IMG/VR virus record: IMGVR_UViG_3300017788_001394
Location: 1 to 64,000 of that record
Reading direction: 5' to 3' (one strand)
Source of the DNA: a virus
DNA: 64,000 nucleotides
Made by a program: the position numbers and the translations under genes. The notes below the pieces were generated by a model that worked only from the letters and a program-made list of their open reading frames with translations, was not told the DNA's origin and searched no databases. Below are positions 24,974-64,000 of the stretch, one piece after another (the stretch's first letter is position 1; the number at the start of each line of letters is the position of its first letter).

Positions 24974-25513
24974 TCAAAGCTGGTTCTGTAACGGATCTAA
25001 GCTAATCTCATTAATGTGTACAGGCTGTTCGATCACCCATTTAATATATCTTGCCGCTGTATCGATAGGCATACATATCCTGTCAGGATGCTTGTGTTGA
25101 TTATTACTTAGCGTTCCAAAACTGATATAACTTACTCTCAGACCGCCGTTCCACACTCCTAGTAAACTTAAGCTGTTGCAGTAGTCTCGCAATGCTTTCT
25201 TTTCAGCATTATAAAGCCAGTCTGTGCCTTTGCATACTCTGTCAGTTGTGCTGCCAATACATACTATATATGCTTGAGAGTTAGCTGTTTTAAGTGTCCT
25301 GTATACTGTATCTAGTAGGACAGTCTGATTGAACTTCCATAGTGCGCTATTAATAATGATAACCTCATGTTTAAGAGCTAATTCAGCAAATGCCTGTTGT
25401 TGTGTATCTTTTGTAAGATCAACACCCTGAGACTTGCTAACAAACTCTGCATCTGGGTATAGTTTATATAGTTCTGCAGCTAGTCCTTTCTGGGGGTTAC
25501 CTGATATAAGCAT
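24974..25513 (-). CDS. short SDR-family oxidoreductase
   Basis: ISGNPQKGLA, IINSA, CIGS, YNAEK; paralog of 22787-23317. Confidence 0.75.
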   Translation of the reverse strand: MLISGNPQKGLAAELYKLYPDAEFVSKSQGVDLTKDTQQQAFAELALKHEVIIINSALWKFNQTVLLDTVYRTLKTANSQAYIVCIGSTTDRVCKGTDWLYNAEKKALRDYCNSLSLLGVWNGGLRVSYISFGTLSNNQHKHPDRICMPIDTAARYIKWVIEQPVHINEISLDPLQNQL

Positions 25514-26639
25514 CAATGATCCCTGTCATTTCTGGATTAGCTAGTGCAAATTGCACACCTTGATAGTTGTCTAGTATTTCAACTGACTTTTTAAATTTAT
25601 CAAATTCCTGCACTGCCGTGCAGTCTGCCATTAAAAATTGATTAAACGTTTCTTTTTTACTGTAATCTATCCATTTAGCTCGAACTTCCAATGGCAGTTG
25701 ATACATAGAAAGATAGTTGGGATGAAACAAATCGTTGTAGTTAACTTCGATGTCCATCGATTTACAAAAATCTACCAATGGAGTTATCATATTGACATTT
25801 AACAAACTTAAAGTAGTGTTGGTGCATAGCGTAATGTTATTATTTTTAACATAGTCTGCCCACTGCCTTAAAGATGTTTCTACTTCTTGCCATGGTACTC
25901 CATACCGAATCACAGTGGCTAAGTCTCCGTATGCATCCAAACTAAATGTTATGCTGGTGTTAAAATTTTCTAGTTTTTTTAAAATATTCTTATTGGGAAA
26001 TATGCTGCCATTCGAAAAGATGTTTAAGTTTACCTGTGATCTATCAACTGATTCATCATACAACTTGTCCAAGAACCATTCGAAATGTTTAGCATAAAAC
26101 GGCTCGCCGCCTTGAATTTTTAAATTAACTATATGCTTAAAGTCTGTATTTTCAAAAACTTTTTGAAACTGATCTTGATAATTTTTATAAATTTTTGTAT
26201 CAAAGTCGCTGTAATATGAAGTTACTTCAGATTTTGAAAATTGATCTAGCACTGATTGTGCTGCGCCCCATTTACTACTAGCAGAAGGAGAACACATTCT
26301 GCACATCATATTGCAAGTATAATCTAGTGCAATTTCTAAATCTTGTACATACCCGTGTTTTATTTTTTCAAATGGAAGAATATTATTTGAATGCTGTCTT
26401 TTACTTCCAATACCTAATGCCTCGTGAGACTGGCAGCGTGTACACTCAGGTATGTCATTACCGTTTTCTAATTGTTCTTGAATAGATTTATATGCTGGGA
26501 GTTTATGTAAATCGTTGAGAGTATTTACATCAAAAATTGACGGAAGTTTTCCTTCCTTGAAAATACAACAAGGATTTATTTTACCTTTTGTTTCTGTAAA
26601 CGAAACCCCCACATAGGTGTGTATACATTTCTTTGTCAT
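25497..26639 (-). CDS. N-terminal twitch-domain radical SAM protein
   Basis: C...G.INPCC...CTRC, then CNMMCRMC, GGEPF. Confidence 0.9.
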   Translation of the reverse strand: MTKKCIHTYVGVSFTETKGKINPCCIFKEGKLPSIFDVNTLNDLHKLPAYKSIQEQLENGNDIPECTRCQSHEALGIGSKRQHSNNILPFEKIKHGYVQDLEIALDYTCNMMCRMCSPSASSKWGAAQSVLDQFSKSEVTSYYSDFDTKIYKNYQDQFQKVFENTDFKHIVNLKIQGGEPFYAKHFEWFLDKLYDESVDRSQVNLNIFSNGSIFPNKNILKKLENFNTSITFSLDAYGDLATVIRYGVPWQEVETSLRQWADYVKNNNITLCTNTTLSLLNVNMITPLVDFCKSMDIEVNYNDLFHPNYLSMYQLPLEVRAKWIDYSKKETFNQFLMADCTAVQEFDKFKKSVEILDNYQGVQFALANPEMTGIIDAYIR

Positions 26640-26681
26640 GAGCAGTCTAAGGTTCCATTGTATGCAAACTTAAAATCAGTA

Positions 26682-61304: not shown

Positions 61305-62162
61305 ATGAAAGAAAGAAAATATATAAATTGGCGCAGCGGTATTAAACGTAGAATTTTAATAATAGGCGATCAAAATCTATTAGGTGACTACAGTTTAGAA
61401 GGTAAACTCGTAGGTTATAAAAGCTGGGCATGGCATTTAAAAAAACAACTTAACGAAGATCATCATATCTATACTTTACCGTTACCTAATTGCAGTTTTA
61501 CACAAGTAAATGCAATATTAGAATATCTCAGAGATAGTGGTCTTCTTGATATCTTTACCCATTGTATTGTCAGTTTACCTGCAGATAACAGTCAAACATT
61601 GTTTACATCAGACGCTGACGGTTATTTTAACGCACTGTCCACTTTTATATTAACCGATCGTTTCTTAAAATATGATTTATATGATGGCAAAGAACTGTAT
61701 GATAGATTCTTAGAACCACATATTATGTCAACAAGTGCATCATATTCTAAAAACAATTTAGATAATAGTGTTAGTTATTCGGTTTTTAACAAACATTTAT
61801 TCTCTGTAAATTACGCCATGTTATTAGATATATTGAAGTCGAGTAATGTTGTTCCAATATTATTTGATCTTGAATCAAGGCCAGTTGCACAATATCAACA
61901 AATTCACACAATAAGAAAACGAGAAGATTTAAATCTATACCCCAACAATTCGTATGCATTTACCGAACCCGACGGTGTATACTGGTCAGCTATAGAGATG
62001 ATAAAGTGCATCGATTTTGATAGAGACTTTAATATCAACAATAACAACACATTCACCGCCGACGACCAATGGGTTCTTGCTAAAACATTGTACAAAGTTT
62101 TAGCTGATAAACTAATACTTGATTGGATAATAGAGGATAAAAAAAAAAAAGGTAAATCATAA
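61305..62162 (+). CDS. degenerate SGNH-like protein
   Basis: IIGDQ, SWAWHL; paralog of the next gene but lacking Ser and His. Confidence 0.5.
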   Translation: MKERKYINWRSGIKRRILIIGDQNLLGDYSLEGKLVGYKSWAWHLKKQLNEDHHIYTLPLPNCSFTQVNAILEYLRDSGLLDIFTHCIVSLPADNSQTLFTSDADGYFNALSTFILTDRFLKYDLYDGKELYDRFLEPHIMSTSASYSKNNLDNSVSYSVFNKHLFSVNYAMLLDILKSSNVVPILFDLESRPVAQYQQIHTIRKREDLNLYPNNSYAFTEPDGVYWSAIEMIKCIDFDRDFNINNNNTFTADDQWVLAKTLYKVLADKLILDWIIEDKKKKGKS

Positions 62163-62972
62163 ATGAAAGATAAAGTATTGTGTATAGGATGCAGCCATTT
62201 AGCAGGTGCATACGATAAAGATGATATAGTCGTTAGCAACGAGTCATGGGCTTGGCATTTATGGAAACGTAGAGGAAAGAATGAAATTTTTTATACGTTG
62301 CCAAGCCCAGGTCAAGGTCTGATGCAGTATGGTGCATTAATAGAAACTCTAAAAAATAAAAACAAACTAAGTCAATTTAAGTATGCCATAATACAGTTAA
62401 CATCCGAACCTAGAATTAATTGGTATGGCGGGTTACCTCAAAATTATTATTTTTCAATATTGCCACACTTTGTTGATAACAATGAAAATGGGTTTAACGA
62501 TGGACAAACAATGTATACTAAGTATGCAAGAAGTATTGTATTATCATCTGACTTTAGAAAAATGTACGAAATACACGAAGGAAAATTTGTTTCTCCGGAT
62601 TCTAAAAATGCTTGGTTGGATATTAGCGAACAGCTTTATGAGTCATTTAATAAAAGTGTACTGTCGCAATCATTATTTCCTATCTATATGAAATATATTA
62701 CTGATACGTTAAAAGAACACAATATAACGCCAATCATATTCGATTGGTGGGGTAAAACGGTCGAACAATGGCAATTGATTGATAATCTGAATATACATGA
62801 TAATATATTGTTTGTCAGGAAATCTATTAAACAGATTCTAATAGATAACAATTTGTGGAACAGAGAAGAGCAAAGTATCGGTGGTCACTTTAACAGTATT
62901 CAAAATAAAGCTGTTACGAAATTTTTGCATAAAGAAATTATTGAAAAAGGTTTAATGCCTGACTATGAATGA
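62163..62972 (+). CDS. SGNH hydrolase-like protein
   Basis: CIGCSH, SWAWHL, PGQG, GGHFN. Confidence 0.6.
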   Translation: MKDKVLCIGCSHLAGAYDKDDIVVSNESWAWHLWKRRGKNEIFYTLPSPGQGLMQYGALIETLKNKNKLSQFKYAIIQLTSEPRINWYGGLPQNYYFSILPHFVDNNENGFNDGQTMYTKYARSIVLSSDFRKMYEIHEGKFVSPDSKNAWLDISEQLYESFNKSVLSQSLFPIYMKYITDTLKEHNITPIIFDWWGKTVEQWQLIDNLNIHDNILFVRKSIKQILIDNNLWNREEQSIGGHFNSIQNKAVTKFLHKEIIEKGLMPDYE

Positions 62973-64000
62973 ATCCTTTTGTGTTGCACCATGGCTACAC
63001 ATGCATGTAGAACCAACTGGCGATGTTCAACTGTGTTGTGCAAGCAATTGGAAACATGATTTCAACCGTAGCTTAGGAAACTTAAACGATGCATCTCCGT
63101 TAGAAATATGGAACAATGAACAATATAGATATGTAAGAGCAAACATGATTAAAGGCAATATGTTAAAAAAATATTGCAGTCCGTGTTATCTTAGAGAAAA
63201 TGGTGCAGTTAATCAAACCGAACGTCAACGACTTAATAAGGAATTTCCTTTAGGTTATGAACTAGCTAAAGAAACAAATGCAGATGGCAGTTTAAACAAG
63301 TTAGACATACGATATCTCGACATACGTTTTAATAATTTATGTAATTTAAAATGCAGGACATGTGGCCCAGACTGGAGCACAAGTTGGGCAAACGAGATGG
63401 GTATTGAAAAACCATTGCACTATAATAACTCCTGGAAAAAACTAATACCGTATCTGGGCAATTTAGAAAAAGTATATTTTGCAGGAGGTGAGCCAATGAT
63501 GACCGCAGAGCATTATGATTTCTTAGAGTTACTATTAGATACAAACCCTAATGTAGAATTACTATACACTAGTAATTTTACAAGATTGGAACTCAAGGGC
63601 AGACATGTAATGGACTATTGGCCAAGGTTTAAACTTGTAAATGCAGTAGCTAGTATTGACCATTGCAATGAATACGCAAGTTATGTCAGAACTGGAAGTG
63701 ATTATAACGTAGTCAAGAATAACTTTTTAGAAATAAAAAATCAAAATTTACACAATGTTAGAGCAGGTGTAACTAGTGTACTAAGTTTGTATAATATTAC
63801 TAAAATAGGTAGCTTCATAACACAGTTGTTTGAAGATAAAATTTTAGATAATATGGATCAAATTGTTTTCAACCTATTAGTAAACCCTAATTATCAAAAC
63901 GCTTTGATTATGCCAGAAGAATCGTTGCCTACGGCATTGAATAGTATCGAATTATGTGAACAGTATTTGCATAATTTAGTAATAGATTCATCTAAGTTAA
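62965..64000 (+). CDS. N-terminal twitch-domain radical SAM protein (partial, not in ORF track)
   Basis: ATG 62965 MNESFCVAPW...LCC...CSPC; NLCNLKCRTC; FAGGEPM; frame open to window end. Confidence 0.9.
   Translation, partial: MNESFCVAPWLHMHVEPTGDVQLCCASNWKHDFNRSLGNLNDASPLEIWNNEQYRYVRANMIKGNMLKKYCSPCYLRENGAVNQTERQRLNKEFPLGYELAKETNADGSLNKLDIRYLDIRFNNLCNLKCRTCGPDWSTSWANEMGIEKPLHYNNSWKKLIPYLGNLEKVYFAGGEPMMTAEHYDFLELLLDTNPNVELLYTSNFTRLELKGRHVMDYWPRFKLVNAVASIDHCNEYASYVRTGSDYNVVKNNFLEIKNQNLHNVRAGVTSVLSLYNITKIGSFITQLFEDKILDNMDQIVFNLLVNPNYQNALIMPEESLPTALNSIELCEQYLHNLVIDSSKL

What the first reader, a model, noticed from the sequence alone, without database searches (positions are those of the whole stretch)
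25497..64000. Eight diverged radical SAM paralogs with the twitch domain at the N-terminus
Genes at 25497, 28778, 31606, 33721, 35088, 37299, 60133 and 62965 all start with C-x2-(P)W/F...G...CC...Cx2C (31606 has CH in place of CC) before the Cx3Cx2C motif, and share GGE(P/S) and S(I/L/V)D...Y.R motifs. SPASM/twitch domains are normally C-terminal. I recall an N-terminal-twitch rSAM family of unknown function, mostly from uncultured sources. Eight highly diverged copies in one phage suggest one chemistry applied to many sites or substrates (inference).
Basis: partly seen in the sequence, partly recalled or inferred. Interest (0 to 1): 0.8.

Follow-up and report, generated by a model that had tools for sequence, protein, structure and literature searches.

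The report
Phage array of N-terminal-twitch radical SAM enzymes
An uncultured marine T4-like giant phage carries 14 old, intact copies (8 in this window) of a catalogued but never-tested iron-sulfur "radical SAM" enzyme whose extra cluster domain sits at the front instead of the back; they lie among sugar-handling genes beside the tail fibres and most likely edit a sugar decoration by unknown chemistry.

Summary
All eight ORFs exist and all pass the curated cut-off of NCBIfam NF033640 (N_Twi_rSAM, 206-407 bits against 170). The whole 103-kb viral record holds 14 such genes plus four or five other radical SAM genes. Each copy has the twitch half-motif C-x9-15-G-x4-C...CxxC ahead of CxxxCxxC. 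Three copies have CH or CYH in place of the CC doublet. The copies are 16-34% identical and are old paralogs, not recent duplicates.

Only four types have 1:1 orthologs in related 180-330 kb phages. The rest of the repertoire differs between phages.

A conserved core holds the 35088-type copy, a canonical-order radical SAM gene (39155), a 75-aa protein, and a protein with a predicted GT-A sugar-transferase fold (47867). The islands hold carbamoyl-, amino- and nucleotidyl-transferases here, and SDR epimerase and DegT genes in relatives. They have no membrane glycan-export genes, and they abut the tail-fibre module.

Best reading, about 50%: cytoplasmic radical tailoring of a sugar-based decoration, probably of virion proteins. 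The substrate and the chemistry are untested.

The family is already catalogued, a 2017 paper noted T4-like marine phages with 12 radical SAM genes, and this scan has reported the same arrays on other DNA several times. This is a new member of a known kind.

The parts
25497..26639 (-). N_Twi radical SAM paralog, 380 aa, CC type
   Evidence: NF033640 at 206 bits, cut-off 170. Motif C-x13-G-x4-CC, CxxC at residue 66, Cx3Cx2C at 109.
28778..29932 (-). N_Twi radical SAM paralog, 384 aa, CC type, with Asn in place of the motif Gly
   Evidence: NF033640 at 239.8 bits; motif scan.
31606..32850 (-). N_Twi radical SAM paralog, 414 aa, CH variant (G-x4-C-H)
   Evidence: NF033640 at 227.3 bits. Groups with the two other CH-type copies (71315, 72793) in the tree at 96% SH-aLRT.
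33721..35091 (-). N_Twi radical SAM paralog, 456 aa; one of four types with orthologs in all related phages compared
   Evidence: NF033640 at 355.4 bits; ortholog clade. Overlaps the next gene by 4 nt.
35088..36488 (-). N_Twi radical SAM paralog, 466 aa; the most conserved core copy
   Evidence: NF033640 at 407.2 bits. Orthologs of 67-88% identity in 242 IMG/VR contigs, and in 76 of 80 loci at 50% identity or more. AF2 model with pLDDT 91.9 and pTM 0.92.
37299..38444 (-). N_Twi radical SAM paralog, 381 aa
   Evidence: NF033640 at 243.1 bits.
60133..61302 (+). N_Twi radical SAM paralog, 389 aa
   Evidence: NF033640 at 261.3 bits; Pfam SPASM at residues 6-74.
62965..64000 (+). N_Twi radical SAM paralog, cut by the window end (full gene 62965-64137, 390 aa)
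   Evidence: NF033640 at 279.3 bits for the truncated form and 300.5 bits in the record. Pfam SPASM at residues 6-74, E 9e-13.
39155..40234 (-). Canonical-order radical SAM gene (core first, Cys-rich auxiliary domain last, also with G-x4-CC); conserved partner of the 35088-type copy
   Evidence: Pfam Radical_SAM. Ortholog in 79 of 80 related loci, median 69% identity. Adjacent to the 35088 ortholog in G001 at 87% identity. Fused to an N_Twi unit in P0221.
51762..52664 (-). Canonical radical SAM/SPASM gene; its C-terminal domain is homologous to the N-terminal domain of the N_Twi copies
   Evidence: Pfam Radical_SAM at 7-168 and SPASM at 223-286. NF033640 positions 107-309 hit its N-terminal part and positions 5-74 its C-terminal part. 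My own N-domain HMM gives E 1.4e-6 at residues 222-297.
23314..24426 (-). Further radical SAM gene, not N_Twi
   Evidence: Pfam Radical_SAM at E 8e-15; 96% identical ortholog in G001.
32838..33737 (-). Further radical SAM gene, not N_Twi, wedged between two N_Twi genes with overlapping ends
   Evidence: Pfam Radical_SAM at E 1.4e-10; coordinates.
47867..48580 (-). Conserved 237-aa protein with a predicted GT-A / nucleotide-sugar transferase fold and an invariant D-A-D
   Evidence: No Pfam or NCBIfam hit. AF2 pLDDT 84.4. VIA Z 8-10 to GT-A glycosyltransferases and sugar nucleotidyltransferases. Foldseek top hits TarP, RmlT, WrtF and SunS. D57, A58 and D59 are invariant. Homolog in 76 of 80 loci. 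A paralog lies at 74364-75356 of the record.
46565..46792 (-). Conserved 75-aa protein of the core module, function unknown
   Evidence: At least 50% identity in 64 of 80 loci. Conserved along its whole length apart from a short variable tail. Adjacent to the 39155 ortholog in G001.
46779..47864 (-). Conserved 361-aa protein of the core module: N-terminal repeats plus a C-terminal domain of unknown family
   Evidence: Homolog in 44 of 80 loci; 50% identical ortholog in G001; no family hit.
36485..37324 (-). PP-loop ATPase-like gene between two N_Twi genes
   Evidence: Weak Pfam hits to QueC and NAD_synthase and weak NCBIfam hits. Three paralogs sit in the G001 island.
26682..28027 (-). Two tandem nitroreductase-family genes (26682-27314 and 27326-28027)
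   Evidence: Pfam PF00881 at E 2e-10 and 1e-14; paralogs of each other.
48687..50219 (-). NodU/TobZ-type carbamoyltransferase
   Evidence: Pfam Carbam_trans_N and Carbam_trans_C, E 1e-51; partial NCBIfam NodU match.
50747..51760 (-). Class I/II aminotransferase
   Evidence: Pfam PF00155 at E 8e-38.
56436..57137 (-). Nucleotidyltransferase (NTP_transferase / MobA-like)
   Evidence: Pfam PF12804 and PF00483.

Best explanation
The eight genes (14 in the whole record) are intact, anciently diverged members of the uncharacterised family NF033640. They are radical SAM enzymes in which the twitch domain, normally a C-terminal extension, is circularly permuted to the N-terminus. Shown here: family membership, the domain order, and retention in every copy of the four canonical twitch ligand positions. 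These are one Cys before the beta-hairpin, the G-x4-C Cys after it, and CxxC. The SAM-cluster triad and the GGE motif are also retained in every copy. Inferred: each enzyme binds two [4Fe-4S] clusters, cleaves SAM to the 5'-deoxyadenosyl radical, and abstracts a hydrogen from its substrate. The fully Cys-ligated auxiliary cluster would then serve as an electron sink, as proposed for BtrN. Inferred from context: the substrates are sugars, either nucleotide-sugars or a growing glycan, of a phage-encoded cytoplasmic pathway. GT-A-fold transferases would attach the product to an acceptor, most plausibly tail-fibre or other virion proteins encoded next door. A conserved core makes the basic structure. 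It comprises the 35088-type and 33721-type copies, two CH-type copies, the canonical-order radical SAM gene 39155, a 75-aa protein and the GT-A-fold proteins. The many phage-specific paralogs would each edit a different position, so related phages would display different decorations.
For: Membership and architecture are supported. The permutation is shown inside this genome: N_Twi model positions 5-74 match the C-terminal SPASM domain of the canonical gene 51762-52664, and positions 107-309 match its N-terminal core. The same holds in an Elusimicrobiota neighbour gene. The AF2 model is one compact unit (pLDDT 91.9, pTM 0.92) with a beta-hairpin at 16-26 and helices before C93xxC96. This matches the published twitch definition of a hairpin followed by alpha2', with ligands before and after the hairpin and after alpha2' (PMC6231123). 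Fold matches all fall in the SPASM/twitch-type radical SAM group, Z 10.3-11.6, including the sugar-acting BlsE. Sugar context in this window: a GT-A-fold protein with invariant DAD in the conserved core, a carbamoyltransferase, an aminotransferase, a nucleotidyltransferase, HAD phosphatases and methyltransferases. Sugar context elsewhere: an SDR epimerase/dehydratase and DegT aminotransferase inside the islands of related phages, and two GT2 genes, SGNH hydrolases and further radical SAM genes around the one bacterial member examined. The pathway looks cytoplasmic. No multi-TM protein other than two transporters occurs in the island, so there is no Wzx/Wzy/WecA-like machinery. Link to fibres: the order CH-type N_Twi, GT-A paralog, three conserved unknowns, fibre genes, giant fibre is conserved between this phage and a 330-kb relative at only 25-50% identity. 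A shared pathway or complex is suggested by 4-8 nt overlaps between neighbouring N_Twi genes. At least 30 tandem N_Twi-N_Twi fusion proteins occur elsewhere, and one N_Twi fusion to a 39155-like enzyme. Core plus variable repertoire.
Against: No member of the family has been characterised, so both substrate and reaction are inferred from neighbours only. The fold search does not separate sugar-acting enzymes (BlsE, DesII, viperin) from peptide-acting ones (SkfB, CteB, SuiB, anSME); their Z scores are tied within 1. The GT-A fold is shared with nucleotidyltransferases, and the match is middling at Z about 10. Pfam GT2 itself is absent from this record and from two of three relatives. The acceptor is unknown. 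An earlier follow-up on this genome found that a candidate fibre loop comes and goes independently of the radical SAM genes (e1-6051120). I could not inspect model coordinates, so the position of the auxiliary cluster relative to the active site is not verified.
Confidence: 0.5

Rival explanations
1. The enzymes modify a peptide or protein instead of a sugar: a RiPP-like product, or residues of virion proteins such as the 3692-aa fibre. The chemistry would be cross-links, epimerisation or oxidation, as in sactisynthases, SuiB, EpeE or anSME.
For: Most characterised SPASM/twitch enzymes are peptide or protein maturases, and SkfB, CteB, SuiB and anSME are among the tied top fold matches. Some family members are fused to Sel1 or TPR protein-binding repeats. 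Two nitroreductase-family genes, a fold also used by RiPP dehydrogenases (my own knowledge), sit in the array. A stand-alone ATE_C-like transferase domain and an AMP-binding enzyme lie in the island. The array lies beside giant fibre genes. A conserved 75-aa protein sits in the core.
Against: Pfam finds no RRE/PqqD-like domain in any copy. No family of short precursor genes was seen. The 75-aa protein is conserved over its whole length, not in a leader/variable-core pattern. The nitroreductases, the ATE_C gene and the AMP-binding enzyme occur in at most 3 of 80 related loci, so they are accessory. The conserved partners are a GT-A-fold protein and sugar-type enzymes.
Confidence: 0.2
2. The island makes or remodels a free small molecule, such as an aminoglycoside- or nucleoside-like metabolite or a modified osmolyte. 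The product would act on host metabolism or on competitors and would not be attached to the virion.
For: BtrN, BlsE, AprD4 and DesII are radical SAM enzymes of aminoglycoside, nucleoside or deoxysugar pathways, and BlsE is the top VIA match. The window also holds a TobZ/NodU-type carbamoyltransferase, an aminotransferase, a kinase-like gene, an aldo/keto reductase and an AMP-binding enzyme. It further holds a betaine-type ABC binding protein and permease, and an SSF symporter.
Against: The transporters, the reductase and the AMP-binding enzyme are absent from nearly all related loci. The conserved core includes transferase-fold proteins and keeps its place next to the fibre genes. No exporter is conserved.
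Confidence: 0.14
3. The enzymes act on nucleotides or DNA, contributing to a hypermodified, possibly glycosylated base that protects the genome from host nucleases.
For: T4-like phages commonly modify and glycosylate their DNA (established knowledge). A thymidylate-synthase-family gene lies at 9975-10880. There is a PP-loop/QueC-like gene. Viperin-type nucleotide-acting radical SAM enzymes are among the tied fold matches.
Against: No DpdA/TGT-type base-exchange enzyme, hydroxymethyl-pyrimidine kinase or QueE/QueD set was seen among the genes scanned with Pfam. The thymidylate synthase scores as an ordinary ThyA, at 338 bits. Fourteen different radical enzymes are hard to reconcile with one or two modified bases. 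The island is syntenic with the fibre module, not with the replication genes.
Confidence: 0.08

Closest known systems
NCBIfam NF033640, N_Twi_rSAM (twitch domain-containing radical SAM protein)
   Same: All 14 copies score above the curated cut-off over nearly the whole 398-position model. They share the order twitch, then linker, then radical SAM core, then a helical C-terminal region.
   Different: Nothing separates them from the family. What is unusual is the copy number (14 in one genome) and the setting in a T4-like marine phage next to fibre genes. The family itself has no characterised member. No paper mentions the accession, and no solved structure is detectable by sequence.
BtrN (butirosin 2-deoxy-scyllo-inosamine dehydrogenase), the founding twitch enzyme
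   Same: One auxiliary cluster domain built from a beta-hairpin and a helix, with four Cys available (before the hairpin, after it, and CxxC), so a fully ligated cluster is expected. BtrN has a sugar-like substrate in a pathway with aminotransferases. Its auxiliary cluster is proposed to accept an electron in a two-electron oxidation (PMC9012708, PMC6231123).
   Different: In BtrN the twitch is C-terminal. There is no detectable sequence similarity to any solved structure, so none to BtrN. BtrN did not appear among the listed fold matches, which is inconclusive. N_Twi proteins carry an extra conserved Cys (the CC doublet) and a helical C-terminal domain of about 100 residues.
BlsE, SkfB, CteB, SuiB, anSME and MoaA (solved SPASM/twitch radical SAM enzymes)
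   Same: These are the best structural matches to the AF2 model, with Z 10.3-11.6 and 219-232 aligned residues covering the partial TIM barrel.
   Different: All have the auxiliary domain at the C-terminus, and the RiPP enzymes add an N-terminal RRE. Identity is 12-15%. The matches are tied, so none indicates a substrate.
T4-like marine environmental viral genome with 12 radical SAM genes (Nishimura et al. 2017, PMC5332604)
   Same: A T4-like marine phage genome with a large set of radical SAM genes, noted together with phage-encoded Fe-S assembly genes. Two relatives of this phage also encode an A-type Fe-S carrier.
   Different: The paper only counted the genes as Fe-S proteins. It did not describe the N-terminal twitch, paralogy or context. 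I did not compare that genome with this one.
Virus-encoded virion glycosylation (chlorovirus PBCV-1 A64R; glycosylated mycobacteriophage virions)
   Same: Cytoplasmic, virus-encoded GT-A-type transferases decorate virion proteins without host membrane machinery. PBCV-1 A64R is among the Foldseek matches of the 47867 protein. The mycobacteriophage case is from my own knowledge.
   Different: No radical SAM enzymes are known in those systems, and glycosylation of this phage's virion has not been shown.

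Membership tests
NCBIfam NF033640 N_Twi_rSAM | Whole-protein score above the curated cut-off (170 bits) with near-full-length coverage of the model | tested here: met
   The eight window copies score 206-407 bits and cover model positions about 1-4 to 394-397, or to 334 for the truncated copy. Fourteen copies in the record score 205-407 bits.
NCBIfam NF033640 N_Twi_rSAM | Twitch-type Cys motif N-terminal to the CxxxCxxC SAM-cluster motif | tested here: met
   C-x9-15-G-x4-C is found in 13 of 14 copies; one has Asn for Gly. CxxC follows at residues 60-107 and CxxxCxxC at 109-161. 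Pfam SPASM matches the N-terminus of three copies.
NCBIfam NF033640 N_Twi_rSAM | Binding of an auxiliary Fe-S cluster by the N-terminal Cys residues | not testable with these tools
   This needs anaerobic purification with iron/sulfide analysis, EPR or Mossbauer spectroscopy, and Cys variants.
Radical SAM superfamily (PF04055) | CxxxCxxC triad plus the GGE SAM-binding motif in a partial TIM barrel | tested here: met
   C149, C153, C156 and G223-G224-E225 are invariant in 73 sequences. Pfam Radical_SAM hits were found, some just under the gathering score. The AF2 model matches radical SAM barrels at Z up to 11.6.
Canonical SPASM/twitch radical SAM enzymes (C-terminal extension) | Auxiliary-cluster domain located C-terminal to the radical SAM core | tested here: not met
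   The domain is N-terminal in all 14 copies. The homologous domain is C-terminal in 51762-52664 of the same genome. The enzymes work like twitch enzymes but are a permuted form.
SPASM domain proper (two auxiliary clusters) | Seven-Cys motif CX9-15GX4C-gap-CX2CX5CX3C-gap-C (PMC6231123) | tested here: not met
   Only the first half of the motif (CX9-15GX4C ... CX2C) is present. No conserved CX5CX3C or final Cys occurs. This means one auxiliary cluster, i.e. a twitch.
RiPP radical SAM maturases (SuiB, CteB, SkfB, PqqE type) | RRE/PqqD-like leader-binding domain, or a partner, and a cognate precursor peptide gene | tested here: inconclusive
   There is no PqqD/RRE Pfam hit in any copy, and no precursor-like gene family was seen. 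The 75-aa core protein is conserved throughout its length. A divergent RRE or a distant precursor cannot be excluded.
GT-A glycosyltransferases (for the partner protein 47867-48580) | GT-A Rossmann-like fold with a DXD metal and nucleotide-sugar binding motif | tested here: inconclusive
   The predicted fold matches GT-A transferases and sugar nucleotidyltransferases at Z 8-10, with Foldseek E about 1e-4. D57-A58-D59 is invariant after strand 52-57. No Pfam or NCBIfam family hit was found, and Pfam GT2 is not found in the record.

The most novel reading that the evidence does not exclude
The N_Twi enzymes are a phage-borne combinatorial toolkit for oxygen-independent radical editing of glycans. 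A conserved core lays down a sugar on tail-fibre or virion proteins. A shuffled set of old paralogs then epimerises, oxidises or otherwise rewrites individual positions, so each phage lineage shows a different surface chemistry. The family-specific second Cys of the CC doublet, next to the auxiliary cluster, could be the hydrogen-atom donor of an epimerase-type reaction, as in NeoN or EpeE (my own knowledge). The CH variants would then carry out a different reaction. This would be a new enzyme chemistry and a new way for viruses to diversify their particles.
Probability: 0.25. Interest if true: 0.85.

Novelty: new member of a known kind. Interest (0 to 1): 0.55.

Why it matters
The family is large: 8,724 clusters at 50% identity score E<=1e-30 against the profile of the 14 paralogs. 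It is enriched in viruses and has no known reaction. Orthologs of a single copy occur in at least 242 IMG/VR contigs and in thousands of marine metagenome proteins, so the unknown product is made on a large scale in the ocean. If the enzymes edit virion glycans, they would explain a hypervariable island next to the host-recognition genes of a cosmopolitan group of giant phages. They would also add new radical sugar chemistry. For enzymology, the permuted twitch is a natural test of what the auxiliary cluster does. Cultured phages with homologs, Vibrio phage K566/K567 and Ralstonia phage RsoM2USA, make the question experimentally reachable.

Tried and rejected
- **Megablast against cultured phages:** 44 kb of the window gave no match.
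- **tblastn of the best copy against cultured phages:** it found only four records at 22-30% identity, and their annotation is uninformative.
- **tRNA scan:** none found.
- **phmmer against PDB sequences:** nothing for the 35088 copy (P0005) or the 47867 protein (P0130), and only a chance-level hit for the 46779 protein (P0131).
- **Drawing relatives for a virus record:** not possible.
- **The look-up of encoding contigs:** The context of bacterial members therefore rests on one Elusimicrobiota locus.
- **Fusion partners of family members:** only Sel1/TPR repeats and further radical SAM units, with no catalytic partner domain.
- **T4-type late-promoter motif TATAAATA:** 11 sites, of which 7 lie in or partly in the 3.3% non-coding DNA. 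Only a few precede island genes (11544, 28055, 50744), so timing of expression is not settled.
- **Recent tandem duplication in this phage:** rejected. Genome labels are not clustered on the tree (26 changes against 23 for shuffled labels) and the branches are long. This is the quick tree only; the careful search did not finish.
- **Recoding or pseudogenes:** rejected. All 14 frames are open with no internal stops.
- **BtrN among the fold matches:** it was not among the rows listed, which says nothing either way.

Full report
**1. What is there**

The window is bases 1-64000 of a 103,292-bp IMG/VR virus record that CheckV estimates to be 28% complete. The record is a T4-like myovirus. PHROG hits include baseplate wedge and hub subunits and a gp55-type late sigma factor. 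ORFs of 3692 and 1180 aa lie at 81-96 kb; the 1180-aa one matches a baseplate wedge subunit, and the 3692-aa one is its paralog and is read here as a giant fibre. Megablast finds no cultured relative.

Each matches NCBIfam NF033640 (N_Twi_rSAM, "twitch domain-containing radical SAM protein") nearly end to end, at 206-407 bits against a curated cut-off of 170. Pfam places its SPASM model at the N-terminus of three copies, ahead of Radical_SAM.

A search of the whole record finds 14 copies over the cut-off. The six extra copies start at 64134, 65468, 68880, 70096, 71315 and 72793. Four or five further radical SAM genes of other types are also present.

**2. Anatomy**

The 14 copies are 16-34% identical to each other. 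Only cofactor positions are invariant, both across the 14 copies and across a 73-sequence family alignment. In the numbering of the 35088 copy (protein P0005) they are:
- the first Cys (C10) and one Cys of the 28/29 doublet
- C93 and C96
- the SAM triad C149, C153 and C156
- S161, G223-G224-E225, N255, S278 and R290

Read against the published SPASM motif CX9-15GX4C-gap-CX2C... (PMC6231123), 13 of 14 copies have C-x9-15-G-x4-C exactly. Copy 28778 has Asn in place of Gly. The motif Cys is followed by a second Cys in 11 copies, by His in 31606 and 71315, and by Tyr-His in 72793. The CC doublet occurs in 87 of 102 family representatives.

The MAFFT alignments placed the single Cys of the CH copies under C29. 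Anchoring on the Gly places it under C28. Either way, every copy keeps the four canonical ligand positions, and the CH copies lose the extra, family-specific Cys. There is no CX5CX3C half-motif, so the domain is a twitch with one auxiliary cluster, not a SPASM domain.

An AlphaFold model of the 35088 copy is confident and compact (pLDDT 91.9, pTM 0.92). It has a beta-hairpin at residues 16-26, helices before C93xxC96, the barrel from about residue 140, and a helical C-terminal region from 371 to 458. I could not inspect coordinates, so the distance between the two clusters is not verified.

**3. The permutation is real**

In this same genome, the canonical radical SAM/SPASM gene 51762-52664 matches N_Twi model positions 107-309 with its N-terminal half. 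It matches positions 5-74 with its C-terminal domain. An HMM of the N-terminal 110 residues of the paralogs hits residues 222-297 of that protein at E 1.4e-6. The same swapped match is seen in a bacterial neighbour gene.

A second auxiliary-domain-first arrangement exists at 14638-15478. A 91-aa ORF resembles residues 253-348 of the 39155 protein, and a 197-aa ORF overlapping it by 29 nt resembles residues 10-185.

At least 30 tandem N_Twi-N_Twi fusion proteins occur among the top 150 family representatives. This is the kind of intermediate expected if the permutation arose by duplication, fusion and truncation. That origin is an inference.

**4. Distribution**

A profile of the 14 copies finds 8,724 clusters (50% identity) at E<=1e-30 among 1.84 billion representatives. 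The nearest Atlas clusters are 88-100% viral. None of 14 control genomes scores over the cut-off, and only 1 of 151 Elusimicrobiota genomes does.

Orthologs of the 35088 copy, at 67-88% identity, occur on 242 IMG/VR contigs. A protein search finds thousands of related metagenome proteins, the closest 68-96% identical and some from Tara samples; none carries more than a generic radical SAM name. Relatives of 180-330 kb, one of them 93% complete, carry about 8 to 13 N_Twi copies each.

A quick maximum-likelihood tree of 43 copies from four phages shows 1:1 orthologs only for four types: 35088, 33721, 72793 and 71315. The 35088 clade has very short branches. The other copies sit on long branches, and genome labels are not clustered. 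The paralogs are therefore old, and the repertoire differs between phages through gain, loss and exchange, not recent duplication.

**5. Context**

Across 80 related loci, four genes of this window are conserved:
- the 35088 copy
- the canonical-order radical SAM gene 39155-40234 (79 of 80 loci)
- a 75-aa ORF (64 of 80)
- a 237-aa protein at 47867-48580 (76 of 80)

In the 330-kb relative these genes are contiguous and end with a CH-type copy. In this window they are separated by accessory genes that almost no relative has, such as an SSF symporter and an ATE_C-like gene.

The 237-aa protein has no family hit. Its model (pLDDT 84) has a GT-A / nucleotide-sugar transferase fold: Z 8-10, with Foldseek top hits TarP, RmlT, WrtF and SunS, and an invariant D-A-D.

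The window also encodes a NodU/TobZ-type carbamoyltransferase, an aminotransferase and a nucleotidyltransferase. It further encodes HAD phosphatases, methyltransferases, two nitroreductases and a PP-loop ATPase-like protein. Relatives have an SDR epimerase/dehydratase and DegT-type aminotransferase inside their islands. The one bacterial member examined sits among two GT2 genes, SGNH hydrolases, TPR proteins and two other radical SAM genes.

Apart from two transporters, no island protein has multiple membrane segments, so the pathway is cytoplasmic. The order CH-type N_Twi, GT-A paralog, three conserved unknowns, fibre genes, giant fibre is shared with the 330-kb relative at only 25-50% identity. 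Neighbouring N_Twi genes overlap by 4-8 nt.

**6. Fold comparison**

The 35088 model matches BlsE, SkfB, CteB, GDGT-MAS, viperin, SuiB, anSME, PFL-AE and MoaA at Z 10.3-11.6, all tied. Foldseek E-values are only about 1e-4 to 1e-5. This places the enzyme in the SPASM/twitch-type group but does not point to a substrate.

**7. Reading**

Membership of NF033640 and the permuted twitch are shown. That the enzymes hold two [4Fe-4S] clusters, and use the closed auxiliary cluster as an electron sink as proposed for BtrN (PMC9012708), is inferred from sequence.

From context, the substrates are most likely sugars of a cytoplasmic, phage-encoded glycosylation pathway that serves virion proteins. I put this at about 0.5. 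The rivals are peptide or protein modification (0.2), a free small molecule (0.14) and nucleotide or DNA modification (0.08).

**8. Prior knowledge**

The family is catalogued but unstudied. No paper cites the accession. Nishimura et al. 2017 noted a T4-like marine genome with 12 radical SAM genes, alongside phage Fe-S assembly genes (PMC5332604). Two relatives here also encode an A-type Fe-S carrier.

This scan has already reported N_Twi arrays in other phage genomes several times, with the same reading, and other notes exist on this same genome. This finding is therefore a further, large example of a known but uncharacterised kind.

Noticed in passing
window 14638-15478 (+): A radical SAM gene of the 39155 type is split into two ORFs that overlap by 29 nt, with the domain order swapped. 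The 91-aa ORF matches residues 253-348 (the Cys-rich auxiliary domain) and the 197-aa ORF matches residues 10-185 (the core). It may be an intermediate, a relic, or a second independent auxiliary-domain-first arrangement.
   Followed up: partly
window 46565-46792 (-): A 75-aa protein is conserved along its whole length in 64 of 80 related loci. It has runs such as ATNNNI, AHH, WY..AVI.WY and GDLPS..GPGK, followed by a short variable tail. It always sits in the core module next to the canonical-order radical SAM gene. Its function is unknown.
   Followed up: partly
window 15542-17454 (+) and 43452-44930 (-): The phage encodes a glycine-betaine-type ABC substrate-binding protein (OpuAC) and a permease, and separately a sodium:solute symporter. 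These are found in at most 1-2 of 80 related loci, so they are strain-specific accessory transport genes. No matching ABC ATPase was noticed.
   Followed up: no
window 42266-42694 (-): A stand-alone 142-aa protein matches the C-terminal domain of arginine-tRNA-protein transferases (ATE_C, E 6e-6). It is present in only 2 of 80 related loci.
   Followed up: no
window 26682-28027 (-): Two tandem, paralogous nitroreductase-family genes sit inside the radical SAM array. A TATAAATA late-promoter-like motif lies at 28055, 28 nt upstream of the second gene.
   Followed up: no
window 6760-7971 (+): A large HNH endonuclease gene (phrog_1314, E 2e-101) lies in a region of raised G+C: 0.457 for 4-8 kb against about 0.36 elsewhere.
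   Followed up: no
window 46779-47864 (-): The 361-aa core protein begins with about five repeats of roughly 20-25 residues, of the type RRAVI(D/E)xNLxS(I/L)F(K/R). A domain with no family hit follows.
   Followed up: no
G001:C1:69859-72432 (related 330-kb phage): In the relative, the GT-A-fold domain of 47867-48580 is part of an 857-aa protein, so the transferase is fused to further, unexamined domains there.
   Followed up: no
G001:C1:75964-76488 and G002:C1:294778-295335: The DegT-type aminotransferase matches in two relatives come as two separate pieces each (model positions about 19-92 and 163-241) within open frames of 233-243 aa. The genes may be shortened or split.
   Followed up: no
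L089 (Vibrio phage K566, record 161548-168284): This cultured Vibrio phage carries four N_Twi-like genes side by side, scoring 134-190 bits against my own HMM of the 14 paralogs. Three are annotated only as radical SAM domain proteins and one as hypothetical.
   Followed up: partly
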